DNA of 32,000 nt from Lysobacteraceae bacterium. Lineage in GTDB: Bacteria > Bdellovibrionota > UBA1018 > JAGTJX01. Of the stretch, positions 1 through 27,792 are shown piece by piece (the stretch's first letter is position 1; each line of letters starts with the position of its first letter). Both the position numbers and the translations under genes were made by a program. The stretch spans positions 39,436 to 71,435 of the forward strand of contig JAGTJX010000003.1 of the NCBI GenBank assembly GCA_023657465.1, read 5' to 3'. Under the pieces are notes generated by a model. The model was given only the letters and a program-made list of their open reading frames with translations, was not told the origin of the DNA and made no database searches.

Positions 1-792
1 CTCGCTTGGGAGAAAATTGGCTTCTCATTCTTCACGACTTCTCATTGGAATCCTGTAAAGCATCAATACGGAGTGGCAGCATTCGCGTGGGCCACACTCG
101 TGACCTCACTCCTAGCACTTCTGATTTCGACTCCACTCTCTCTAGCAGTCGCAGTGAGTGTGACTGAACTCATGAAGAAGCGCGCAGGTCGCGTATTTGG
201 ATTCTTCGTGGATATGCTGGCCGCAATCCCTAGCGTAGTCTACGGACTCTGGGGAATATTCGTACTCGTCCCACTCATGCGCACGCAAGTGCAGCCCTGG
301 TTGTTTGAGAACTTGGGATGGATAGGAATTTTCTCCGAAGTTCCATACGGAGTGGGGATCCTCACTGCATCGATCGTGCTTGCGATCATGATTCTACCCA
401 CGATGAGCTCATTGCTCAGGGAGGTATTCCAAACGATTCCACTCACTCAGAAAGAAGCAGCCCTGGGATTAGGCGCGACGAAGACGGAAATGATTTATCT
501 CTCTGTGGTGAAATCATCTAAGAGCTCGATCGTAGCTGCTATGGTTTTAGGCTTGGCGCGAGCACTGGGCGAAACAATGGCAGTTACTATGGTAATCGGC
601 AATCGTAACGACTGGATGAAGTCGATCTTCTCTCCCGCACAAACTATGGCATCACTCATCGCCAACGAATACGTCGAAGCTACTCATGATCTACACCTCT
701 CTGCATTGGCGCTGGTGGGCGTGACGTTGCTTATGATCTCATCTGTGATTCAACTCGTCTTCCGTGCGATTTATGCCAGAGGGAGGAAATAA
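1..792 (+). CDS. pstC: phosphate ABC transporter permease PstC (5' truncated by window edge)
   Basis: Reading frame is open from base 1 (LAWEKIGFSFFTTSHWNPVKHQYGVAAF...); binding-protein-dependent permease signature EAALGLGATKTEMIYLSVVKSSKSSIVAAMVLGLARALGETMAV; followed by pstA and pstB. Confidence 0.93.
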   Translation, partial: LAWEKIGFSFFTTSHWNPVKHQYGVAAFAWATLVTSLLALLISTPLSLAVAVSVTELMKKRAGRVFGFFVDMLAAIPSVVYGLWGIFVLVPLMRTQVQPWLFENLGWIGIFSEVPYGVGILTASIVLAIMILPTMSSLLREVFQTIPLTQKEAALGLGATKTEMIYLSVVKSSKSSIVAAMVLGLARALGETMAVTMVIGNRNDWMKSIFSPAQTMASLIANEYVEATHDLHLSALALVGVTLLMISSVIQLVFRAIYARGRK

Positions 793-794
793 AA

Positions 795-1637
795 ATGAAA
801 AGTAATTTCCGAAAAACTAAAGATCTATCACTTAAAGTGCTCTATATTATGGGGGTACTCATAGCAATTGCGCCACTCGTTTCTGTGCTCTGGACAGTCG
901 TCCGAGAAGGATATGGAGCACTGACTCCGACATTCTTCACGAATACACCTGCGCCAGTAGGCGAAGTAGGAGGAGGGATTGCGCATGCGATTATAGGAAG
1001 TTTTGTAGTTGTAGGGCTTGCATCAATCGTTGCAATTCCTTGGGGAATTATTCTTGGGATTGCGAGATCTGAGTTTCCTAAGACAATTACTGATAATATT
1101 TTAGGATTCGCGATTGATCTCTTCATGAGTATTCCGACATTATTAATCGGTTTGTTTGCTTATGGACTCATCGTCATGCGGATGAGAACATTCTCTGCTT
1201 GGTCGGGAGCGTTTGCTCTCATGCTCATTATGGTTCCACTCATTACGAAGACGACTGAAGAGATGTTGAAGCAGGTGCCACTCACAGTACGTGAAGCAGG
1301 ATTGGCCTTAGGATTACCGCGTTGGAAAGTGATTCTGCGAATCATTTTGCCGGGATCTATAGGGGCTGTGAGCTCAGGTGTTCTCCTAGCGTTGGCTAGA
1401 ATATCAGGTGAAACCGCTCCCTTGCTGTTTACAGCATTTGGTATGAGGACTTTCTCACAATCACTCTCCGAACCCATTGCAACACTACCCGTTCAAATTT
1501 ATACCTATTCCATCTCGCCTTATGATGAGTGGAGATCACAGAGTTGGGGAGCGGCTCTGGTGTTAGTGATGTTGGCTCTAGTTGTGAATGGGGTGACTCG
1601 AGCATTAATCGGTTCCCGAACCAGAGGTAAAAAATGA
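795..1637 (+). CDS. pstA: phosphate ABC transporter permease PstA
   Basis: Permease motif [48 protein letters not shown]; position between pstC and pstB. Confidence 0.95.
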
Positions 1638-2410
1638 GCGCTGAATTTACACCATCTCCCATCCTTCAAGTTGAGAACGTCAATGCGTACTTCTCAGGTT
1701 TCCATGCGGTGAAGAATATTTCTCTGGCGGTTCCTGAACATCAAGTCACTGCACTTATTGGACCCTCAGGTTGCGGTAAGTCCACATTCATCAGATCACT
1801 CAATCGTCTTCACGAAGAAACTGAAGGTGCTACGCTGACAGGTGAAGTGAGACTAGCTGGAAAAAATATTTATACTCCAGGAGTCGATCCTGTTGAGATC
1901 AGGCGTCAAATCGGAATGGTTTTTCAGAAAGCAAATCCATTCCCAGGCATGTCGATTTATGAAAACGTTGCTGTGGGGCTCACACTCCAAGGTGGATTCT
2001 CAAAAGTCGAAATTGAAAACCGAGTGGAGAAGGCACTTCGTTCATCCGCACTCTGGGATGAAGTGAAAGACAAGTTGAAGAAGCCAGGTACTTCGCTCTC
2101 GGGTGGTCAGAGTCAGCGTCTGTGTATCGCACGTGCTCTTGCAGTGGAGCCTAAGGTGATTCTGATGGATGAGCCGACTTCAGCTCTTGATCCGATTTCT
2201 ACAGCACGCATTGAAGAACTTATTTTTGAACTGAAGAAACAAACCACAGTTGTGATCGTCACGCATAATATGCAGCAGGCAGCGAGGGTTTCAGATTTTA
2301 CAGCGTTCTTCCTCATGGGAGAGCTCATTGAGATGGGGATCACGAAGACGATATTCACTAATCCTAAAGAGCGACAAACTGAACACTACATCACAGGGAG
2401 GTTCGGATGA
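1634..2410 (+). CDS. pstB: phosphate ABC transporter ATP-binding protein PstB
   Basis: Walker [10 protein letters not shown], signature [16 protein letters not shown], Walker [14 protein letters not shown]; [14 protein letters not shown] start typical of PstB; 4-nt overlap with pstA. Confidence 0.97.
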
Positions 2411-3108
2411 GTACAAATGGAAAGATCCTGATTGTAGAAGATGAATCCGATATTCGTGATCTCATGATGCTTCACTTAACCCGAGCAGGATATGAGTGCC
2501 TGGGGTTTTCTGAAGTCGGTGGATCGTTGGATAATATTAAGACAGGCGATATCTCTCTTGCGATTGTAGATTGGATGTTACCCGATATCAGCGGCTTAGA
2601 ACTCATTCGCCAAATTCGTAGGGTGAAGACTTCAGATGCACTTGGAGTTCTCATGGTCACTGCTAAGGGTGAACCCTCGGATGTGATCTTAGGTCTTGAA
2701 GTAGGAGCTGATGATTATCTTATTAAGCCGTTTGATGTTCAGGTGCTCACAGCTCGTGTTCGGGCACTCATGCGAAGGATTTCTGTTTCGAAGGAAGTGG
2801 CGTCACATCCTAAGTCTATTCTCACGTTGGGAAAACTTTCACTCAACACAGATTCATTCGAAGCGACAATCGACGGCGAGAAGGTGCCTCTGACCAAGAG
2901 CGAGTTCATGCTTCTCCAAGTATTACTAGAGAACCGAGGCAAGGTGCTATCGCGTGAAAAGCTCATGGATTGTATCCAGGGCGAAGGAGTGAACACAGTA
3001 GATCGCGTAATCGATACGCACGTCTTCGGACTGCGCAAGAAAATCGGTGAAGTCGCAGATCAGATTGAAACCGTACGAGGCATTGGTTATCGGGTGAAGT
3101 GGGAATGA
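2407..3108 (+). CDS. phoB: PhoB/OmpR-family response regulator
   Basis: Receiver domain ([24 protein letters not shown] in VTAKGEPSD) plus winged-helix C-terminus ([27 protein letters not shown]...[13 protein letters not shown]); directly follows pstB. Confidence 0.9.
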
Positions 3109-4235
3109 GTTGGTTAAGTCGCGACTCCTCTCGTGAGAAAATCATTCACACTCTCAAATCCTGGACTCCAGGTGAGCCACTTCCTGTAGCAGAAATTCCT
3201 GAACTAGAAGAATGGTTCAAGCGGATCAATCAAATTGCATTGGGAGAGAAGGATCTCTGGCAGGGCATCTTAAATGCACAGCCTGATCCTGCGTGTTTAC
3301 TAAGCTTAGTAGGTAAAATCGAAGCGAAGAATCATAAATTCAAAGATAAATTCGGAGAAGGCAAGCGCATTGAGGATTCTGTGCGTGATCCAAAGGTTCT
3401 TGAGACTGTAGAAGGCGTACGCAAAGGATCGATAGGCGCTTCATCCAAGATCGAAGTCAAAATTTCTGAGAGATTCTATAAACTACGGGTCTCTCGCCTT
3501 GAGGCGTATGTTTATTGTGTGTTTCAGGATCAGACGGATCTCAAACATGCGATTGAAGACAGATCTCAGTTACTGAGTGATATCGCACACGAGTTACGTA
3601 CACCACTTACAGCCATCTTGGGTTTCAGTCAGACATTGAAGCAAGATCTGAAGACGACGCCGATCGAAGAGTGTGCGTCGTTCATCGAAATCATCGCACG
3701 AAACGCTGAGAGATTAGGGGTTCTGGTTAATGAGTTCTTAGATCTCACCAGGCTCGAATCCAATGCGTTTAAAATCAACCGTGAAGTGGTCGGAGTAGAG
3801 TTACTCTGTGCTCAGGTGCTTGATCAGTTGCGTTTCGCAATCGATGAAAAGATAATCGACCTACGGATCGATCTTCAGGTGAAGTCTCTCTCTGTGGACA
3901 AGGCTCTTTTTGAACGTGCGTTTCGCAATGTGATTGAGAATGCGATTAAGTATTCTCCTCCTAAGAGCAAGATGGAGATTAGATTTAAGGCTACGTCTGG
4001 TGGATTGCGAGTTGAAGTTCAAGATGAAGGTCCAGGGATTGCTAAGGAGTTCCAAGAGCGGATCTTCGATCGCTTCTTCCGTATTGAGACTTCCAGGGCG
4101 CGCGATCAAAAGATCAGTGGATCCGGACTTGGCTTGGCTCTCGTGAAGCGTATCGTGCAAGCTCATGGTGGCACAGTCGGTGTGGAGAGTGAACTTGGTC
4201 AGGGTTCGCTGTTCTGGATTGAGCTTAGGAGCTAG
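3099..4235 (+). CDS. PhoR-like sensor histidine kinase without obvious transmembrane segments (start probably 3105)
   Basis: H-box SDIAHELRTPLTAILGFSQTLK, N-box IENAIKYSPP, G-boxes DEGPGIAKEF and GSGLGLALVKRIV; overlaps the regulator gene. Confidence 0.88.
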   Translation: MGMSWLSRDSSREKIIHTLKSWTPGEPLPVAEIPELEEWFKRINQIALGEKDLWQGILNAQPDPACLLSLVGKIEAKNHKFKDKFGEGKRIEDSVRDPKVLETVEGVRKGSIGASSKIEVKISERFYKLRVSRLEAYVYCVFQDQTDLKHAIEDRSQLLSDIAHELRTPLTAILGFSQTLKQDLKTTPIEECASFIEIIARNAERLGVLVNEFLDLTRLESNAFKINREVVGVELLCAQVLDQLRFAIDEKIIDLRIDLQVKSLSVDKALFERAFRNVIENAIKYSPPKSKMEIRFKATSGGLRVEVQDEGPGIAKEFQERIFDRFFRIETSRARDQKISGSGLGLALVKRIVQAHGGTVGVESELGQGSLFWIELRS

Positions 4236-22580: not shown

Positions 22581-22604
22581 ATTAGTTAAGTATATCGAAA
22601 TGAA

Positions 22605-23161
22605 TCACTGATACCAGTCCAATATTAAAGAACCTTCACTGACAAAAAAGGATGAAGCAGGTGCAGTGTTGGAAGTAAAATAAGGAGTATTAACCCAGTT
22701 CTGTAGATGATAGGCCGCAACTACTCCAAGCTGAACACCCTTCATGATGGGTTTCAGTGTGCTGAGATAGATCCAGTGCTTGTAAACTAATCCTATTGCA
22801 TAGTTCAGCGGAACGTAGGTTTCATACTGAAAAAAAAAGTTCAAAGGGGTGAGTCGTTCTCCATCCAGACATTGTCCTTCTCTCAAATGACAGTGTAAAA
22901 CTTAGTACCTCTCACTCCCATGACGGCGCTCTTTGTTCTTGCAGTTCACTTGAGCGAAGACTGCGCCGCTATCGAGCATCACCGTTGGTGTTGACTCATT
23001 CGTAAGAGTGACTTCTTGAGTACTGTTCCAGTAGGCTCAAGAGTCAATGTGCCAGTAAGTTCTGAAACAGTTCCCATGAGTGCAAGCGATTGAGTCGAGA
23101 GTAAGAGAGCGAATAGTGTGTTCATGTGAACTATTGTTGCAAATATTAGTAGAAACGACAC
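22605..23161 (-). pseudogene. frame-disrupted exported FecR-like gene remnant
   Basis: Signal-peptide-like MNTLFALLLSTQSLALMG, then shifted frames VTLTNESTPTVMLDSGAVFAQVNCKNK (stop at 22902) and MGVRGTKFYTVI (stop at 22883), then open frame HLREGQCLDG... to 22605. Confidence 0.55.
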
Positions 23162-23176
23162 TAGTCAGTACGTTGA

Positions 23177-25246
23177 CTACTTTTTTCTAGATACGCGGTT
23201 TTTAGATCTAGATTTACCTTCTACAGGCTTACTATTGTACTGATCAGTCGTTTTGATGCCATCCAGTGGTGATTTGCGTTCATCAAATCTTGGTAATCCA
23301 GGAGGGAAGAAATCCTCTGGATCTTGTGGTTCATCAGCATTTGGAAAAAACGATCCACGTTCTTGGAATAAGAGTTGAATTGTTTCTTCGTCATAAATAA
23401 ATCCTACTGAGGAGTTTGCTGCAGAAGGACCTCGTTGATAACCTTGTCTTCCTAATAGTTCTCCTACGCGACCACCTTGCCCGTCTTCAGTAGTTGCATG
23501 AGTGTGCCCAGACATGCTGACACCGAAACTTGCACGCATTTGGGCAACACTAATACCTTTAGCACCGTTCACTCCGTTTTGGGCATGTTGAGAGACGTCT
23601 ACACCTTGCACCATTGAGAATGGATTAGGATTTTCAGGATCGATTCCAAGGCGGTAAGTATCTGAAGCTTTGAGAAACACGACTCTGTCTGTATTAATTC
23701 CATAATATTGGAAAATTCTTTTGTAAGGGTCAACTCCTTCATTGATTGCTTCGTAAGTTAACTTTAATACGAGCGGTAGATCTTTGGGTTTAGAGTTTTT
23801 AAAGAGATCCCCTGATTGAAGTTTTTTCATGAGCCATTCAGCACCATGATTATCTTCAGGAACTATGATTAGAGTATTCGGTAACATAGTCAGTAGTTGT
23901 TTCATCCAAGCAGCAGCGTTTTGAAAATGATTCTCTAAATCGAGAGCACCTTCACGGTCACTCATTGCCTTTGAGATGAGGCTTTCTAAAATATATCTAG
24001 AGTTTGGAGTGCCATTCACTAGATCTTCGAGAACAATGGCTCCTAATTGTGTTTCACCCTGTGTGTATTCGTACTCATTGAAGGCGCCGTATTTTGGGTT
24101 TTTCTCAATAATCTTCATGTGCTTCAAAAGCTCATTGACGGCTTTGAGTGAACCAGGATTAGTGATGCCTAAGTGAATGTCTCCTAAAACCATTCCAGGA
24201 ATAATTTTTAGTTTCTTTTTCCCTTCAGGAGTATAAACATTCCCCAAATCAGCAAATCCAATTGGCTTTTCCTGGTTATCTCTCATGAGTCTCACACGTC
24301 TGGGTGCTGAACCATAAGCACCACCGGAGACATCTGAGATGAGAGGACTATAATAGAGTCTAGAGTAAACAATCGCTGACTGGTTTTTTTCTGCAGTTTT
24401 TTGAGCTTTATAATCTGTGTTCATGCTCATATTGAATTCACCTTGATAAGCAGGTTCATTGAATGAACCCGTTGTCATGAAATAAGAAGGATGAGTGTCA
24501 AAGTTTCCAGTTGGTTTTGAATTTAATTTTACTTTGTTATGAAAAACAATGACTTTGTCCGCAGGAGAAAAATTTGCAAGATTCATTAAATCTTTCTCAA
24601 GAGGATTGACTCTTTTATCGTGATAGCCAGGATCGACCCAGTGCACGTTTTTAGTGTACTGAATATCTTCAAGCATGATGAAAACGTTTGGCATTTTGAA
24701 TAGTTCAGCAAATTTTTTAGGAATGCTTCCTAGTTCTTTGAAAGTAGGTGAGAAGATGAGAGGTGCTTTTAAATCTTTAGCCATCACTAATGCGGCTTGA
24801 AGTACTTTGTCATTGATATCTTGCCCCTGGCCTAGCTTACTCATGATGATTGAGCCCGAAGATCTAATTGCCTTCATCATCTCATCCTGTTTCTTCTGAG
24901 TGAAAAATCTGTGATCAATAACATTTTGAAATGCATCAGGAAATTTATTTATCGTATCATCAATAAAATTAGAAATATTTTTGTTAGAGCCAAAATACTT
25001 ACTCAGGCTTTTGGCATCTTCGATCTCGAGATAATTTGAAAACTCTGAGAGAATTTGAGAGGGGGTTTCTGGTATTTCGTTTTTCTCTTGGACGAACTCT
25101 TTGAATTGCTTCATGAGATCTTCAGGAGTCATTGAAATTGCTGTGGAGCACTTCTTTTCCCACTGATATTTAGAAGTGTGTTTATCTTCTTCAGCGAGCG
25201 TTATGTTAGGCATCAGAAAGAGAAAGGTTATCAGTGAGAGTTTCAT
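23177..25246 (-). CDS. exported calcineurin-like metallophosphoesterase, phage T5 A1-like motif arrangement
   Basis: Signal peptide MKLSLITFLFLMPNITLA; TTGSFNEPAY; VLGDIHLG; IVPEDNHGAEWL; HAQNGVNGAKG; MSGHTHA. Confidence 0.7.
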   Translation of the reverse strand: MKLSLITFLFLMPNITLAEEDKHTSKYQWEKKCSTAISMTPEDLMKQFKEFVQEKNEIPETPSQILSEFSNYLEIEDAKSLSKYFGSNKNISNFIDDTINKFPDAFQNVIDHRFFTQKKQDEMMKAIRSSGSIIMSKLGQGQDINDKVLQAALVMAKDLKAPLIFSPTFKELGSIPKKFAELFKMPNVFIMLEDIQYTKNVHWVDPGYHDKRVNPLEKDLMNLANFSPADKVIVFHNKVKLNSKPTGNFDTHPSYFMTTGSFNEPAYQGEFNMSMNTDYKAQKTAEKNQSAIVYSRLYYSPLISDVSGGAYGSAPRRVRLMRDNQEKPIGFADLGNVYTPEGKKKLKIIPGMVLGDIHLGITNPGSLKAVNELLKHMKIIEKNPKYGAFNEYEYTQGETQLGAIVLEDLVNGTPNSRYILESLISKAMSDREGALDLENHFQNAAAWMKQLLTMLPNTLIIVPEDNHGAEWLMKKLQSGDLFKNSKPKDLPLVLKLTYEAINEGVDPYKRIFQYYGINTDRVVFLKASDTYRLGIDPENPNPFSMVQGVDVSQHAQNGVNGAKGISVAQMRASFGVSMSGHTHATTEDGQGGRVGELLGRQGYQRGPSAANSSVGFIYDEETIQLLFQERGSFFPNADEPQDPEDFFPPGLPRFDERKSPLDGIKTTDQYNSKPVEGKSRSKNRVSRKK

Positions 25247-26433
25247 TTTTGATCTCTCCCAGGTTCAGCAAATATTTTTCTTCTTGCACTTTGCTCGACA
25301 CCGATCATCCAGTTTGTACAGGCGTGAGGGTTTTTTTCCATCGATTTTATGACGAAGGAAGATGCGTCTCTGAGACTCATCCCAAGTGATAGCTCGAAAA
25401 CTCTAAGCATGTCATCTGTTCTTTCGATTCTGTTCGGCCAGAAGACACTGACTCGGGACATTTTCTCAGTTTGTATGAGAGGACTATCATCCCAACTCTT
25501 GGGATTAGGATTTGCAAATACTTCGGGCTCAACTGCATTCACTAGAATGGGAATGACTCTCTGGCTACCCACTCCTGTATTTGAGAGTTTTTCAAAAAGT
25601 TCAGAAAGATCTTTGATGTGTTTTCTAGAGTTTTCGAACATCACTAAGAAATGAGGTGTTTTATGATTGTTCATCATCCTCTCAGAGAGATCATAATAGA
25701 GCTTAGAGAGATAATCTTTTTTGGATTCGTTGAATTCTAAAAATTTTGGATTTGTGAGATTGACGCTTGCGTTTAACTTCCAGTCTCTTTTCCCTAGTTT
25801 TAACTCGTCTCTAATGAGTTCAAGGGTAGCTTTGAGTTCTTCAGGTTCATGACCACGCATCGTGAGACCAGCTCCTACCAAGTGGTTTTCAAATTGCCTG
25901 CTAAACACGGCTGCAAAGTAAGCATAGCTTTCGAGTAAAAATTTGCCTTTTGTTTCTAGAGCTTCTGCAACAGCTTTATACATTGGCCCCTTCTTAGGGT
26001 CTTTGGTTCTCGTACGGAATTCTTCATAGCTGAACTCAGGATCAAGATAGTAGAATGCAGGAACGATTTTCTGGCCATCGCTCAGAGTGACTTCATCTTG
26101 CCCCATTCCAATTATAAATTTTCCATTCTCATCACGTCTGCCATGCATGAGCTTGGAACCAATTCTTGGACCAACGTTTCCTTCGTAGTCTTGAACTGGA
26201 ACGCAGATCTCCTCAGGAAGGCCTGAGATATTCGGGAACATTGCAGATTCAATTTGCTTGGCGCGTTTTAACCGGAAACATCCGATGTTCAGAAATAGAG
26301 TTCCGTCTATATCAAAAACAAAAACTGTACGCTGTTTGGGATCAATTATATTTTGTTCTTTGTCTTGCGCGTACACGGGTATCCCAGATGATATGAGGAG
26401 GCAGAGGAGTAGTGCGACTTTGAGTACCATCAT
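25243..26433 (-). CDS. exported HAD-superfamily-like protein
   Basis: Signal peptide MMVLKVALLLCLLISSGIPVYAQ; HAD motif I VFVFDIDGTLF; 4-nt overlap with the downstream metallophosphoesterase gene. Confidence 0.65.
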   Translation of the reverse strand: MMVLKVALLLCLLISSGIPVYAQDKEQNIIDPKQRTVFVFDIDGTLFLNIGCFRLKRAKQIESAMFPNISGLPEEICVPVQDYEGNVGPRIGSKLMHGRRDENGKFIIGMGQDEVTLSDGQKIVPAFYYLDPEFSYEEFRTRTKDPKKGPMYKAVAEALETKGKFLLESYAYFAAVFSRQFENHLVGAGLTMRGHEPEELKATLELIRDELKLGKRDWKLNASVNLTNPKFLEFNESKKDYLSKLYYDLSERMMNNHKTPHFLVMFENSRKHIKDLSELFEKLSNTGVGSQRVIPILVNAVEPEVFANPNPKSWDDSPLIQTEKMSRVSVFWPNRIERTDDMLRVFELSLGMSLRDASSFVIKSMEKNPHACTNWMIGVEQSARRKIFAEPGRDQK

Positions 26434-26486: not shown

Positions 26487-27725
26487 GTGGTTAGTCCTAA
26501 TTGCTGTCAAGCTCTATCAATCATCAATCAGCACTATTTGCGGCCACAATCTGATTCTACTTCTCTGATATCTAAGCTCTGGGACTTCTGGCTATTAGGT
26601 GGTGCAAGCATTGTTTTTTGGGTGTTTATGATAACCCTTAAGCAACTCAAGGAATTTTCAGAACCATTGGAGAAACACTTCGTAGGTCTTGCTCCTGTTT
26701 TTGCCCTCTTACTGGTTTTCTGTAATTACCCGCACTTCATGATGTCCTATAAGTTTGCTTACGGGCAGGGGACGAAGTTTGTTTGGAAGAACTGGATCAG
26801 TCTCGTTGCTGTTCCTGTACTCCTGGCTGCGAGTTTTGGATTGGCATTCTTCCTATTCGAAACAGAGATCGATGCGTTTCAGTCTGTTGGGTTCATCAAT
26901 CTAGTCACAGATAAGGTGGGCTTGGACTTTCGTCTAGGTTCGCTGAAGAACTTAGGTACAGAGATACTCAGTTTCTCAGTGCTTCTCATGTTTCTTCTCG
27001 TGGGATGGCATTACTCCAAGCAAGTCTTCGGTTGTGTGATTCTCTACTCTCGCTATGAGAAGTATCCTCTCTCTCAGTTGCAAAGAAATTTAATCAAGTG
27101 GAGTTTGCTTTCTGTTGCTGTGTTTAATTTTCTTTATCTTTCAATCTATTCTCCTCAGTACAATTCTACTTCTGTTCCTAAGACTTATTTTCTGAATATT
27201 CCTTCTGTGCCTCTGGGATTACCAGGATGGTTTATTCCACTCAGTGAATTGATCGTTGGAGTACTCACAGTTGCAAGTGCTTACTTGATTTTCTATAGGA
27301 ACTACAAAAATAAAAAAATATTACCTAGCCTTAATCTCATCACGCCTTGGATCGCGTTTTATATCTGGTGGATTCCGGTTTCAAGTTTAGGTGAGTATTA
27401 TTTTCTTGCTGTGCCATTCTTCCATTCACTTCAGTATTTGGCTTTTGCATACAGAAGAGATGTTTCGCGTGCTCAGAATATGAAGAAGTTCAATTTTACT
27501 ATGTCAGTGAGAGTCGTGCTGCTTCTGTTTATGGGGCTTATAACGTTTGAGCTTCTACCTAGTTTCTTAGATTCCTACTCCGAGAGTTACTGGAATTTTA
27601 GGACGTGGTTCTTCATGATTTCGATTCCGGTATTCATTAATATTCATCATTACTTCATAGATAGTGTGACGTGGAAGTTTGAATCCAAAGAGGTGAGTGA
27701 GAGTTTATTAAAAAATTGGAGGTGA
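26487..27725 (+). CDS. multi-pass membrane protein of unknown function
   Basis: 412-aa ORF with about 10 hydrophobic segments; C-terminal FINIHHYFIDSVTWKF. Confidence 0.75.
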   Translation: MVSPNCCQALSIINQHYLRPQSDSTSLISKLWDFWLLGGASIVFWVFMITLKQLKEFSEPLEKHFVGLAPVFALLLVFCNYPHFMMSYKFAYGQGTKFVWKNWISLVAVPVLLAASFGLAFFLFETEIDAFQSVGFINLVTDKVGLDFRLGSLKNLGTEILSFSVLLMFLLVGWHYSKQVFGCVILYSRYEKYPLSQLQRNLIKWSLLSVAVFNFLYLSIYSPQYNSTSVPKTYFLNIPSVPLGLPGWFIPLSELIVGVLTVASAYLIFYRNYKNKKILPSLNLITPWIAFYIWWIPVSSLGEYYFLAVPFFHSLQYLAFAYRRDVSRAQNMKKFNFTMSVRVVLLLFMGLITFELLPSFLDSYSESYWNFRTWFFMISIPVFINIHHYFIDSVTWKFESKEVSESLLKNWR

Positions 27726-27792
27726 CGCCCGGACTCGAACCGGGAGATAACGGTTTTGCAAACCGTTCCCTTAGCCATTTGGGTACGTCACC
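27717..27792 (-). tRNA. tRNA-Cys(GCA), CCA encoded
   Basis: ggtgacgtacccaaatggctaagggaacggtttgcaaaaccgttatctcccggttcgagtccgggcgtcacctcca folds as a cloverleaf: 7-bp acceptor, anticodon loop ttGCAaa, T-arm cccggttcgagtccggg, discriminator U. Confidence 0.96.

What the first reader, a model, noticed from the sequence alone, without database searches (positions are those of the whole stretch)
23177..26433. Coupled pair of exported phosphoesterases resembling phage T5 A1-type host-takeover proteins
Two adjacent minus-strand genes overlap by ATGA, and both encode signal peptides. The first product has HAD motif I (FVFDIDGTLF). The second carries a metallophosphoesterase set (GDIHLG, DNHG, HAQNGVNGAKG, GHTHA) and a preceding TTGSFNEPAY segment; as I recall, this arrangement is characteristic of phage T5 A1-like proteins acting in host DNA breakdown. 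Finding it with a signal peptide in a chromosomal operon is unusual. If the organism is predatory, an exported nuclease/phosphatase pair could digest prey DNA or salvage prey nucleotides. Alternative uses are extracellular phosphate scavenging or a toxin-like effector. This is the strongest candidate for an undescribed system in the window.
Basis: partly seen in the sequence, partly recalled or inferred. Interest (0 to 1): 0.8.

Follow-up and report, generated by a model that had tools for sequence, protein, structure and literature searches.

The report
Exported phage-A1-like nuclease with phosphatase partner
Two overlapping chromosomal genes encode a secreted relative of the phage T5 protein that destroys host DNA and a secreted phosphatase-like partner; this unannotated pair recurs in relatives of the predatory Bdellovibrio bacteria and may digest DNA outside the cell.

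Summary
Two minus-strand ORFs (25243-26433, 396 aa; 23177-25246, 689 aa) overlap by ATGA, start with signal-peptide-like N-termini and contain every quoted motif.

The second protein is a true homologue of phage T5 A1 (PHROG 1745 E=5.5e-20; 55-sequence profile vs T5 A1: 99.96%, E=5.9e-39). It keeps the full metallophosphoesterase metal-site signature.

It belongs to a distinct, unannotated lineage that differs from phage A1:
- a signal peptide, then one conserved Cys;
- HTH-like N-terminal modules;
- a conserved C-terminal tail.

The first protein matches no Pfam or NCBIfam family. It conserves HAD motifs I-IV in the right structural places; fold matches to HAD enzymes are weak.

A partner homologue lies directly upstream in 18 of 18 exported-type loci and in none of about 150 phage-type loci. 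The partner's C-terminal Cys and the A1-like protein's N-terminal Cys are kept in 12 of 13 pairs and lost together in one, suggesting a disulfide-linked heterodimer.

Three of five reference-genome relatives are Pseudobdellovibrionaceae MAGs.

Best reading, inferred and not shown: an extracytoplasmic DNase plus nucleotide phosphatase, echoing T5's A1 plus Dmp. I rate it a new variant of a known kind, with moderately high interest.

The parts
25243..26433 (-). Gene A: exported HAD-like phosphatase partner, 396 aa
   Evidence: The ORF is. The family has only 12 homologues in the 5.8-billion-protein database. There is no significant Pfam or NCBIfam hit. The AF2 model has pLDDT 75.8. A homologue is conserved upstream of every exported A1-like gene.
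26368..26433 (-). Gene A signal-peptide-like N-terminus (residues 1-22, MMVLKVALLLCLLISSGIPVYA|QD)
   Evidence: Sequence and hydropathy. Homologues also have N-terminal hydrophobic segments. No dedicated predictor was run.
26299..26313 (-). Gene A HAD motif I, D41-I-D43-G-T45, at the end of predicted strand 1
   Evidence: D41 and D43 are invariant in close and distant homologues. Strand 36-41 is followed by a one-turn helix at 42-46 and a hairpin strand at 52-57 in the model.
25882..26298 (-). Gene A large insertion between motifs I and II (residues 46-184), cap-like
   Evidence: Model secondary structure. It contains the conserved GLPEE..VPV.D.EGNVGPR and LS.G..I.PG.YY.D blocks.
25852..25866 (-). 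Gene A candidate HAD motif II, L190-T191-M-R193-G194
   Evidence: R193 is invariant and L190 and T/S191 are conserved. The motif sits at the end of strand 185-191.
25720..25722 (-). Gene A candidate HAD motif III, K238
   Evidence: Invariant. It lies at the N-terminus of helix 238-251.
25630..25635 (-). Gene A candidate HAD motif IV, E267-N268 (END; DD, ED or DE in distant homologues)
   Evidence: It sits at the end of strand 261-267.
25318..25320 (-). Gene A C-terminal Cys372, proposed disulfide partner
   Evidence: Invariant in 12 close homologues. A C-terminal Cys is present in 12 of 13 pairs, and it is lost together with the gene B Cys in L017.
25243..25246 (-). ATGA stop/start overlap (translational coupling)
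   Evidence: The same 4-nt overlap (gap -3) occurs in most homologous pairs.
23177..25246 (-). Gene B: exported homologue of phage T5 A1 (metallophosphoesterase), 689 aa
25193..25246 (-). Gene B signal-peptide-like N-terminus (residues 1-18, MKLSLITFLFLMPNITLA|EE)
25148..25150 (-). Gene B Cys33, its only cysteine, proposed disulfide partner
   Evidence: The equivalent Cys is invariant in the distant sets A5 and A6.
24872..25129 (-). Gene B N-terminal helical region (about residues 40-125) with one HTH-like module (IPETPSQILSEF...SKYFGS)
   Evidence: Helices with pLDDT 60-80 in an otherwise poor model. Weak sigma70-ECF hit at E=0.034. Equivalent regions of family members match Pfam Sigma70_r3, for example P0046 at 60.7 bits with 3 stretches.
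23342..24871 (-). Gene B region homologous to T5 A1 residues 91-556 (residues 126-635)
   Evidence: hhalign 99.96%, E=5.9e-39.
24446..24475 (-). TTGSFNEPAY segment (residues 258-267), aligned to T5 A1 YSTGTATLKNY
24167..24184 (-). Metallophosphoesterase motif I, GDIHLG (D356, H358)
   Evidence: H358 is invariant and D356 is at least 90% conserved in 55 exported members.
24023..24025 (-). Metallophosphoesterase motif II acidic residue, D408
   Evidence: Invariant.
23843..23854 (-). Metallophosphoesterase motif III, DNHG (N466, H467)
   Evidence: Invariant.
23555..23587 (-). Motif IV region, HAQNGVNGAKG (H554, G558, G561)
   Evidence: H554 and G561 are invariant. The region aligns to T5 A1 HGHNGINGSRG.
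23495..23509 (-). Motif V, GHTHA (H581, H583)
   Evidence: Invariant.
23180..23341 (-). C-terminal tail specific to the exported type (residues 636-689; FFP...PR..RK.P..G..TTDQY); function unknown
   Evidence: Conserved. It is absent from T5 A1, which ends at the position aligned to residue 635.

Best explanation
The locus is a two-gene, translationally coupled module whose products are both exported by the Sec pathway.

Gene B is a cellular homologue of phage T5 A1. It is a binuclear-metal phosphoesterase preceded by an HTH-type DNA-binding module. It most likely cleaves DNA outside the cytoplasm, in the periplasm, the medium or a prey cell.

Gene A is a divergent HAD-type phosphatase with a large cap. 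It most likely removes phosphate from the nucleotides that gene B releases, or from DNA ends.

The two proteins probably act as a complex, held by a disulfide between the C-terminal Cys of A and the N-terminal Cys of B. The net reaction would be extracytoplasmic DNA to nucleotides to nucleosides plus phosphate. This parallels phage T5, where A1 drives host DNA breakdown and Dmp dephosphorylates the dNMPs.

Shown here: homology to A1, intact metal-site residues, export-type N-termini, strict pairing, and Cys covariation. Inferred: the DNA substrate, the phosphatase activity, complex formation, and any role in predation.
For: Homology to A1:
- PHROG 1745, E=5.5e-20;
- hhalign against the real T5 A1: 95.6% and 99.96%, E=5.9e-39, over A1 residues 91-556.

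Metal site: D356/H358, D408, N466-H467, H554 and H581/H583 are invariant or nearly so across 55 exported members. Pfam Metallophos reaches its gathering score in the family member P0039.

DNA link:
- T5 A1 is necessary and sufficient for host chromosome degradation in vivo (10.64898/2026.04.02.716235);
- Sigma70_r3-type HTH modules occur in the N-terminal regions of exported members;
- in L001/L002 an exported UshA-type 5'-nucleotidase lies directly downstream of the pair.

Export: signal-peptide-like N-termini and Cys depletion are specific to this lineage.

Partner protein:
- DxD, [TS]xR, K and an acidic pair are conserved and sit at the ends of strands 1, 2 and 4 and at a helix N-terminus in a model with pLDDT 76;
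- the named BFVD fold hits are mostly HAD-type enzymes, such as a PNKP phosphatase domain at probability 0.90.

Obligate pairing: 18 of 18 exported-type loci against 0 of about 150 phage-type loci, with no third conserved gene and an ATGA overlap.

Disulfide idea: both Cys are kept in 12 of 13 pairs and both are lost in L017.

Lineage: three of five reference-genome hits are Pseudobdellovibrionaceae MAGs.
Against: - No activity of any family member has been measured. Even T5 A1 has not been shown to be a nuclease in vitro, and it might act by activating a host nuclease.
- The window protein itself does not reach any Pfam threshold.
- The gene B structure model failed (pLDDT 46), so no fold comparison with Mre11/SbcD-type nucleases was possible.
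- The HAD assignment is not statistically secure. PF00702 scores E=0.18, Foldseek against the PDB finds nothing, and hhalign to T5 Dmp matches motif I only.
- The signal peptides were judged by eye and a simple heuristic.
- The disulfide covariation rests on a single co-loss.
- The window organism is labelled Xanthomonadaceae by its submitter and was not independently classified.
- From my own recollection, not checked here: Bdellovibrio takes up nucleoside monophosphates directly, which would make a nucleotide phosphatase less obviously useful in predation.
Confidence: 0.45

Rival explanations
1. Housekeeping periplasmic scavenging of small phosphoesters. The pair would hydrolyse nucleotides, cyclic or dinucleotides, or other small organophosphates to feed phosphate and nucleoside uptake, as UshA, CpdB (metallophosphoesterases) and AphA (a HAD-superfamily acid phosphatase) do in E. 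coli. Polymeric DNA would not be the substrate and predation would not be involved.
For: Both proteins belong to, or resemble, the same two superfamilies as the E. coli periplasmic enzymes (UshA/CpdB background in PMC10454023, listed). The large cap on gene A fits small substrates, going by general knowledge of HAD caps. A pstCAB/phoBR-like cluster lies in the same window. An exported UshA-type 5'-nucleotidase sits beside the pair in L001.
Against: Gene B is specifically related to A1, whose known phenotype is chromosome degradation, and not to UshA or CpdB. The L001 5'-nucleotidase shows no similarity to it. HTH-type modules in the exported lineage point to nucleic-acid binding. The pst/pho genes are about 19 kb away and are not linked to the pair in other loci.
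Confidence: 0.2
2. Cell-envelope phosphate remodelling. The metallophosphoesterase would cleave a phosphodiester in an envelope polymer or lipid and the HAD-like enzyme would remove the remaining phosphate. In this reading the A1 homology reflects only a shared catalytic fold.
For: In the window and in L005 the pair sits next to undecaprenyl-diphosphatase (BacA/UppP). Nearby, in the window, L005 and L001, are a heptosyltransferase, DUF4097 and KdtA-type genes.
Against: This neighbourhood is not conserved in the Pseudobdellovibrionaceae loci or in the distant exported loci. Only the two genes travel together. The HTH modules and the homology to A1 over about 470 residues, well beyond the catalytic core, argue for DNA.
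Confidence: 0.08
3. DNA translocation rather than digestion. Like T5 A1, which is required for second-step DNA transfer and is membrane-associated, the exported homologue would handle DNA crossing the envelope, for example by processing incoming DNA during uptake. The partner would trim DNA ends, as a PNKP-like 3'-phosphatase does.
For: T5 A1 is annotated as a 'DNA transfer protein' and is membrane-associated. The best named fold hit for gene A is a PNKP phosphatase domain. HTH modules are present.
Against: No competence, pilus or transfer genes lie next to the pair in any locus. No A2-like partner was detected. The large cap on gene A is atypical of HAD enzymes that act on macromolecules, going by general knowledge.
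Confidence: 0.07
4. Catalytically active but unrelated in function: a domesticated phage gene now used as a secreted toxin or effector against competitors. Gene A would act as a chaperone or immunity-like partner rather than as an enzyme.
For: [quoted passage not shown] The pair is tightly coupled, as toxin and partner genes often are. Its GC content is below that of the flanks.
Against: Gene A keeps a full set of catalytic-type residues over large evolutionary distances and is itself exported, which an immunity protein for a DNase would not need to be. There are no PADLOC hits and no secretion-system genes nearby. The pair sits in core chromosome.
Confidence: 0.08

Closest known systems
Phage T5 A1 (T5.004, 'DNA transfer protein'; PHROG 1745)
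   Same: Homologous over A1 residues 91-556 (99.96%, E=5.9e-39). It has the same metallophosphoesterase motif set and the same TTG...Y segment upstream of the catalytic domain.
   Different: - Gene B has a signal peptide, a conserved post-signal Cys, a different N-terminal region and a conserved C-terminal tail of about 50 aa that A1 lacks.
- It is chromosomal, lies among housekeeping genes, and is absent from viral contigs.
- No A2-like partner was found.
- It belongs to a separate lineage on the tree.
- Identity to A1 is only about 18-24%.
The T5 pre-early pair A1 plus Dmp (dNMP 5'-phosphatase)
   Same: Functional analogy: an A1-type enzyme encoded with a phosphatase that has DxDGT, TxR and DD motifs. 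T5 Dmp has DLDGT, CTAR and IDD. In T5, DNA goes to dNMPs and then to nucleosides.
   Different: No detectable homology between gene A and Dmp beyond motif I (hhalign probability 3%). Gene A is 396 aa with a 140-aa insertion, against 244 aa for Dmp. The T5 genes are not adjacent or overlapping and their products are cytoplasmic. Phage-type loci showed no Dmp-like or gene A-like neighbour.
E. coli periplasmic nucleotide-scavenging enzymes UshA, CpdB (metallophosphoesterases) and AphA (HAD superfamily)
   Same: Exported metallophosphoesterase and HAD-type phosphatase activities acting on nucleic-acid-derived phosphoesters outside the cytoplasm. This is the same kind of system at the level of enzyme superfamilies.
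   Different: Gene B has no 5_nucleotid_C domain and is unrelated to the UshA-type enzyme next to the pair in L001. The E. coli enzymes are not encoded as a coupled pair. Gene A reaches no HAD family threshold.
Secreted nucleases of Bdellovibrio bacteriovorus (Bd0934, Bd3507, Bd1244, Bd1934)
   Same: Signal-peptide-bearing DNases of predatory bacteria that are implicated in prey or extracellular DNA degradation (PMC7925074, PMC3593177).
   Different: The paper on those enzymes does not mention metallophosphoesterases. None was compared by sequence here. Those nucleases are not essential for prey DNA degradation, and the authors allow for unidentified extracellular nucleases.
Mre11/SbcD-type metallophosphoesterase nucleases
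   Same: The same calcineurin-like metal-site signature. The T5 preprint states that A1 shares structural features with double-strand-break-repair nucleases and polymerase proofreading subunits.
   Different: No sequence match to any solved structure. The structural comparison failed here because the model was poor.

Membership tests
T5 A1 / PHROG 1745 superfamily | Significant profile match to the family model | tested here: met
   phrog_1745, E=5.5e-20, residues 331-634 on profile positions 264-540 of 542.
T5 A1 / PHROG 1745 superfamily | Homology to T5 A1 itself over most of its length | tested here: met
   hhalign 95.6%, E=1.2e-8 with 5 sequences. With 55 sequences: 99.96%, E=5.9e-39, A1 residues 91-556 against gene B residues 126-635.
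T5 A1 / PHROG 1745 superfamily | Phage genome context and a cytoplasmic product | tested here: not met
   The pair lies in core chromosomal context. The close family gave no viral-contig hits. All 80 viral loci carry the type without a signal peptide. Gene B has a signal-peptide-like N-terminus.
T5 A1 / PHROG 1745 superfamily | Association with an A2-type DNA-binding partner | tested here: not met
   phmmer with T5 A2 found nothing in any fetched locus. That is a single-sequence search, so distant relatives could be missed.
T5 A1 / PHROG 1745 superfamily | Causes degradation of cellular DNA | not testable with these tools
   Shown only for T5 A1 in vivo (10.64898/2026.04.02.716235).
Calcineurin-like metallophosphoesterases (Pfam Metallophos clan) | Motif set D-x-H / D / N-H / H / G-H-x-H | tested here: met
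   D356, H358, D408, N466, H467, H554, H581 and H583 are invariant or at least 90% conserved in 55 exported members.
Calcineurin-like metallophosphoesterases (Pfam Metallophos clan) | Pfam gathering score for PF00149 or PF12850 | tested here: inconclusive
   The window protein has no hit. Family member P0039 reaches 23.5 bits against a cutoff of 21.5, and P0047 scores 21.2.
Calcineurin-like metallophosphoesterases (Pfam Metallophos clan) | Beta-sandwich phosphoesterase fold | tested here: inconclusive
   The AF2 model has pLDDT 46, so the Foldseek result is uninformative.
HAD (haloacid dehalogenase-like) phosphatases, for gene A | Motif I, DxDx[TV], at the end of strand 1 | tested here: met
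   D41-I-D43-G-T45. D41 and D43 are invariant in close and distant homologues. The strand spans 36-41 in the model.
HAD (haloacid dehalogenase-like) phosphatases, for gene A | Motifs II (S/T), III (K/R) and IV (acidic pair) in order and at strand ends | tested here: met
   T/S191 with R193, K238, and E267-N268 (DD, ED or DE in distant members). Their placement is at the end of strand 185-191, the start of helix 238-251 and the end of strand 261-267. This rests on a predicted model.
HAD (haloacid dehalogenase-like) phosphatases, for gene A | One-turn helix and beta-hairpin directly after strand 1 (squiggle and flap) | tested here: inconclusive
   The model shows helix 42-46 and strand 52-57, which is consistent. 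It comes from a model of moderate confidence, and the coordinates were not inspected.
HAD (haloacid dehalogenase-like) phosphatases, for gene A | Significant match to a HAD family profile or a solved HAD structure | tested here: not met
   - PF00702: E=0.18, 12.6 bits against a cutoff of 26.4.
- Best PDB profile hit: the HAD-type protein 3l7y at E=0.074.
- Foldseek against the PDB: best E=0.037, TM 0.18.
- BFVD: weak hits to HAD-type proteins, probability 0.9-0.99, TM 0.27-0.46.
T5 Dmp-type dNMP phosphatase, for gene A | Homology to T5 Dmp | tested here: not met
   hhalign probability 3%, motif I only. A T5-like phage Dmp appears only at rank 44, E=1.1, in the BFVD fold search.
Known anti-phage defence systems (PADLOC) | Match to any PADLOC model | tested here: not met
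   No hits for either protein, the divergent neighbour or distant family members.

The most novel reading that the evidence does not exclude
The pair is a disulfide-linked, secreted DNA-demolition machine of Bdellovibrio-like predators: an A1-type DNase fused to DNA-binding HTH modules, with its own nucleotide phosphatase. It would account for the prey-DNA degradation that persists when the known secreted nucleases are deleted. It would also show that a predatory bacterium and a virulent phage use the same enzyme lineage, and the same two-step chemistry, to destroy a victim's chromosome. In addition, it would give a tractable cellular system for working out what A1 does biochemically.
Probability: 0.2. 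Interest if true: 0.8.

Novelty: new variant of a known kind. Interest (0 to 1): 0.62.

Why it matters
T5 A1 is the only T5 pre-early gene that is both necessary and sufficient for the very fast destruction of the host chromosome. Its biochemistry is unsolved, and it has been regarded as essentially a hallmark of Demerecviridae phages.

This locus shows a large, unannotated cellular lineage of A1 homologues that has been re-targeted to the outside of the cytoplasm. Each member is locked to a second, family-less phosphatase-like protein.

If the inferred chemistry holds, three things follow:
- It gives a concrete candidate for the unidentified extracellular or prey-directed nuclease discussed for Bdellovibrio.
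- It gives a natural two-protein system in which A1-type activity and its partner requirements can be assayed.
- It is an example of the same enzyme lineage serving both viral and bacterial attack on cells.

It also defines two protein families that are currently labelled only 'hypothetical'.

Tried and rejected
- **Single-sequence and small-profile searches of both proteins against the PDB.** Nothing relevant was found; the only hits were coiled-coil artefacts and one sub-threshold HAD protein.
- **Structure prediction of gene B.** Only five sequences were permitted in the alignment, giving pLDDT 46. The Foldseek search on that model returned meaningless hits.
- **Deepening the permitted alignment.** A third homologue search with a 55-sequence profile returned the same five proteins.
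- **Foldseek of the gene A model against the PDB.** No significant match.
- **hhalign of gene A profiles against T5 Dmp.** Motif I only, so a homologous A1-Dmp operon was rejected; only an analogy remains.
- **The 560-aa gene next to the pair in L001.** Tested as a possible A1 paralogue and rejected. It is a UshA-type 5'-nucleotidase.
- **Defence-system reading.** No PADLOC hit.
- **Prophage or island reading.** The flanks are core housekeeping genes, and no viral contig carries the exported type.
- **Lipoprotein reading of the conserved gene B Cys.** The Cys lies 2-15 residues beyond the hydrophobic core and has no lipobox.
- **Promoter and terminator scan.** No more sites than in shuffled sequence.
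- **Identifying the window organism.** Cluster names returned only the submitter's label.
- **Broad alignments A4 and A5.** Too divergent for locus scans.

Full report
**1. The observation**

The window contains two minus-strand ORFs, 25243-26433 (396 aa, gene A here) and 23177-25246 (689 aa, gene B). On the minus strand the junction reads ...caaaaATGAaactc.... The TGA stop of gene A and the ATG start of gene B therefore share four bases, and a GGGAGAG Shine-Dalgarno-like motif lies just upstream.

Both N-termini look like Sec signal peptides: MMVLKVALLLCLLISSGIPVYA|QD and MKLSLITFLFLMPNITLA|EE. I had no dedicated predictor, so this is a judgement from sequence. Family-level evidence, given in section 3, backs it up.

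**2. What gene B is**

Pfam and NCBIfam give nothing significant for the window protein. PHROGs matches residues 331-634 to phrog_1745, 'DNA transfer protein', at E=5.5e-20. tblastn against phage genomes finds weak hits (23-24% identity) to proteins annotated 'putative A1 protein'.

I fetched the real T5 left terminal repeat and compared profiles directly:
- a 5-sequence profile gives 95.6%, E=1.2e-8;
- a 55-sequence profile gives 99.96%, E=5.9e-39, aligning gene B residues 126-635 with A1 residues 91-556.

The alignment includes the TTGSFNEPAY segment (against A1 STGTATLKNY), QH..NG.NG..G and GHTH. Across 55 exported relatives the invariant or nearly invariant residues are D356, H358, D408, N466, H467, H554, H581 and H583. 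These form the canonical calcineurin-like metallophosphoesterase metal-site signature. Pfam Metallophos reaches its gathering score in one family member.

A 2026 preprint (10.64898/2026.04.02.716235) makes four relevant points:
- A1 is a predicted metallo-phosphatase.
- It is necessary and sufficient for host chromosome degradation in vivo.
- It has not yet been shown to be a nuclease in vitro.
- It appears 'predominantly associated with' Demerecviridae.

**3. A distinct exported lineage**

An exhaustive profile search of 1.84 billion cluster representatives found 819 relatives at E<=1e-3, 365 at E<=1e-10 and 62 at E<=1e-30. The best 149 fall into two types:

| Feature | Exported type | Phage type |
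|---|---|---|
| Number among the best 149 | 77 | 72 |
| Signal-peptide-like N-terminus | yes | no |
| Median length | 773 aa | 554 aa |
| Cysteines | median 1-2; 75 of 77 have one Cys shortly after the hydrophobic core | many |
| N-terminal region | signal peptide, then HTH-like modules | HTH-like ('...GITR..IR.HFGS') |

A neighbour-joining tree of the shared core has one split that holds 78 of the 80 signal-bearing sequences. Most 'non-signal' sequences on that side are heuristic misses or fragments.

On 80 IMG/VR viral loci every A1-like gene is the type without a signal peptide (median 526 aa). The close family gave no viral hit at all.

Besides the signal peptide and the Cys, the exported type has two further features. 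Its N-terminal regions match Pfam Sigma70_r3 HTH modules, up to 60.7 bits with three stretches in P0046. The window protein is an N-terminally shortened member with one such module and only a weak sigma-70 hint. The exported type also has a conserved C-terminal tail of about 50 aa (FFP...DQY) that T5 A1 lacks.

**4. What gene A is**

Gene A has only 12 homologues in the word-indexed 5.8-billion-protein database, none annotated. It has no significant Pfam, NCBIfam, PHROG or PADLOC match and no tblastn hit in phage genomes.

An AlphaFold2 model built from 12 sequences is usable (pLDDT 75.8, pTM 0.76). Across close and distant homologues the conserved residues are D41, D43, T/S191, R193, K238, H261, E267 (with a second polar or acidic residue) and C372. 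In the model they sit as follows:
- D41 and D43 at the end of strand 1, followed by a one-turn helix and a hairpin strand;
- T/S191 at the end of strand 2;
- K238 at a helix N-terminus;
- E267 at the end of the next core strand.

This is the layout expected for HAD motifs I-IV, with a 140-residue cap-like insertion after motif I.

Statistical support is nevertheless weak:
- PF00702 scores E=0.18;
- the best PDB profile hit is a HAD-type protein at E=0.074;
- Foldseek against the PDB finds nothing;
- Foldseek against BFVD gives probability 0.9-0.99 but TM only 0.27-0.46. The named hits are mostly HAD-type enzymes: a PNKP phosphatase domain, an RNA-repair HAD domain, an acid phosphatase and, at rank 44, a T5-like phage Dmp.

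T5 Dmp has the same style of motifs (DLDGT, CTAR, IDD), but profile comparison detects only motif I. I therefore call gene A 'HAD-like, probably a phosphatase', not a demonstrated member of the family.

**5. The pair is the unit**

Gene A homologues sit immediately upstream of the A1-like gene, usually with the same 4-nt overlap. This holds in every exported-type locus I could examine:
- the window;
- L001/L002, L003/L004/L010 and L005;
- five reference-genome loci, L007-L011;
- the distantly related metagenomic loci L012-L017 and L055, where gene B identity is only about 22-28% and the partner is found by HMM at E=1e-12 to 1e-5.

With a broader HMM the partner is found in 18 of 18 exported-type loci and in none of about 70 metagenomic plus 80 viral phage-type loci. 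An all-against-all comparison of neighbours found no third conserved gene.

The flanks vary. They are BacA/UppP, HU and QueE in the window and L005; an exported UshA-type 5'-nucleotidase in L001/L002; and Dus, DUF454 and GIY-YIG in the Pseudobdellovibrionaceae MAGs. The window itself is ordinary core chromosome. The pair has lower GC (0.37-0.41) than most of the window (0.43-0.49).

**6. A possible covalent complex**

In 12 of 13 pairs the mature gene A protein has a Cys 10-25 residues from its C-terminus, often its only Cys. The mature gene B protein has one Cys 2-15 residues after the signal peptide, also often its only Cys. In L017 both are absent. Unpaired conserved cysteines in two co-exported, translationally coupled proteins, lost together, are most simply explained by an intermolecular disulfide. 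This is an inference from a single co-loss event and needs testing.

**7. Organism**

The submitter labels the MAG 'Xanthomonadaceae bacterium'. Its GC of about 44% is far below what I recall as typical for that family.

Of the five species-representative genomes that carry the close family, three are labelled uncultured Pseudobdellovibrionaceae. [quoted passage not shown] The window organism is thus probably a relative of these predators. I could not classify it independently, and the taxonomy of the distant exported loci is unknown.

**8. Mechanism**

The best-supported reading is an extracytoplasmic nucleic-acid catabolic pair. Gene B would bind DNA through its HTH module and cleave it at a binuclear metal site. 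Gene A would dephosphorylate the resulting nucleotides or DNA ends. The two would probably act as a disulfide-linked heterodimer. This mirrors T5, where A1-dependent DNA breakdown is followed by Dmp-dependent dephosphorylation of dNMPs.

In Bdellovibrio the known secreted nucleases are dispensable for prey DNA degradation, and unidentified nucleases are suspected (PMC7925074). The pair is therefore a reasonable candidate. I did not show that cultured predators carry it.

| Status | Items |
|---|---|
| Shown | homology to A1, intact catalytic residues, export-type features, obligate pairing, Cys covariation |
| Inferred | substrate, activities, complex formation, localisation, biological role |

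The rivals, scored separately, are:
- small-molecule phosphate or nucleotide scavenging of the UshA/CpdB/AphA kind;
- envelope phosphate remodelling;
- DNA translocation or end-processing;
- an effector with a non-enzymatic partner.

**9. Novelty and verdict**

Both proteins belong to, or resemble, well-known catalytic superfamilies, and exported nuclease and phosphatase systems are a known kind. Several features appear to be undescribed in the databases and literature I could search:
- a cellular, exported, monophyletic branch of the A1 family;
- its HTH and C-terminal additions;
- its invariable coupling to a phosphatase-like protein that belongs to no described family;
- the Cys covariation between the two.

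I rate it a new variant of a known kind, with interest 0.62. The reasons are a solid, reproducible genomic pattern, a clear link to an open question in T5 biology and to one in predatory-bacterium biology, and no functional data so far.

Noticed in passing
window 73-4235: A phosphate-uptake and regulation cluster: two BPD_transp_1 permeases, an ABC ATPase that NCBI names as the phosphate ABC transporter ATP-binding protein, then a response regulator and histidine kinase (pstCAB plus phoBR-like). It lies about 19 kb from the pair and is not linked to it in other loci.
   Followed up: partly
whole window: The source MAG is labelled 'Xanthomonadaceae bacterium' (locus tags KA715_...). The window's GC is about 44%, and the closest genomic relatives of the pair lie in Pseudobdellovibrionaceae MAGs, so the label looks wrong.
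   Followed up: partly
window 22581-23176: There is a gap of about 600 bp between gene B and the BacA/UppP gene. In the 84%-identical relative L005 the same two genes are only 47 bp apart. The gap holds a 48-codon ORF with a signal-peptide-like start (MNTLFALLLSTQSLALMG..., about 23125 to 22979, minus strand) and a 93-aa TTG ORF. Neither was checked for conservation.
   Followed up: no
window 26487-27725 (+): A 412-aa protein is transcribed divergently from the pair. It has about 7 hydrophobic segments and matches no Pfam, NCBIfam or PADLOC family. A 403-aa ORF with no Pfam hit occupies the same divergent position in L005 (similarity not tested), with a 315-aa Lnb_N-domain gene between it and gene A. 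Its GTG start lies only 53 bp from the gene A start.
   Followed up: partly
window 27717-27792 (-): A single tRNA-Cys (GCA) gene lies right after the 412-aa membrane-protein gene.
   Followed up: yes
L001 10620-12302 and L002 4244-5926: In this lineage an exported UshA-type 5'-nucleotidase (Metallophos plus 5_nucleotid_C, with a signal-peptide-like N-terminus) lies directly downstream of the pair. It is unrelated in sequence to gene B.
   Followed up: yes
L022, L023, L028, L032, L045, L053 (phage-type loci): In six of the phage-type metagenomic loci a thymidylate kinase gene lies immediately upstream of the A1-like gene, linking phage-type A1 to nucleotide metabolism. Pfam Thymidylate_kin scored E=6e-20 and 6e-22 on the two tested.
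   Followed up: partly
gene A homologues (A3, A7; L003, L007, L008, L012, L014, L015 and others): Most gene A homologues begin with Met-Gly (MGQVYSG, MGCWG, MGNRGDK, MGRWF...) ahead of the hydrophobic segment. The window protein and L005 do not. The significance is unknown.
   Followed up: no
window 23180-23341 (gene B residues 636-689): A conserved C-terminal extension (FFP..PR..RK.P..G..TTDQY) is specific to exported A1-like proteins and absent from T5 A1. It could be a sorting or partner-binding element; this was not tested.
   Followed up: no
L051 (P0080, 573 aa) and P0125 (581 aa): Two short A1-like proteins with signal-peptide-like N-termini and a post-signal Cys fall on the phage-type side of the tree. 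L051 showed no gene A-like neighbour within the DNA held. This may be a second, independent exported variant.
   Followed up: no
plasmid NZ_OW485605.1 (Rhodovastum atsumiense), 63987-65051: The only plasmid hit to gene B (24.7% identity, E=1e-6), annotated as a hypothetical protein. Its type and context were not examined.
   Followed up: no
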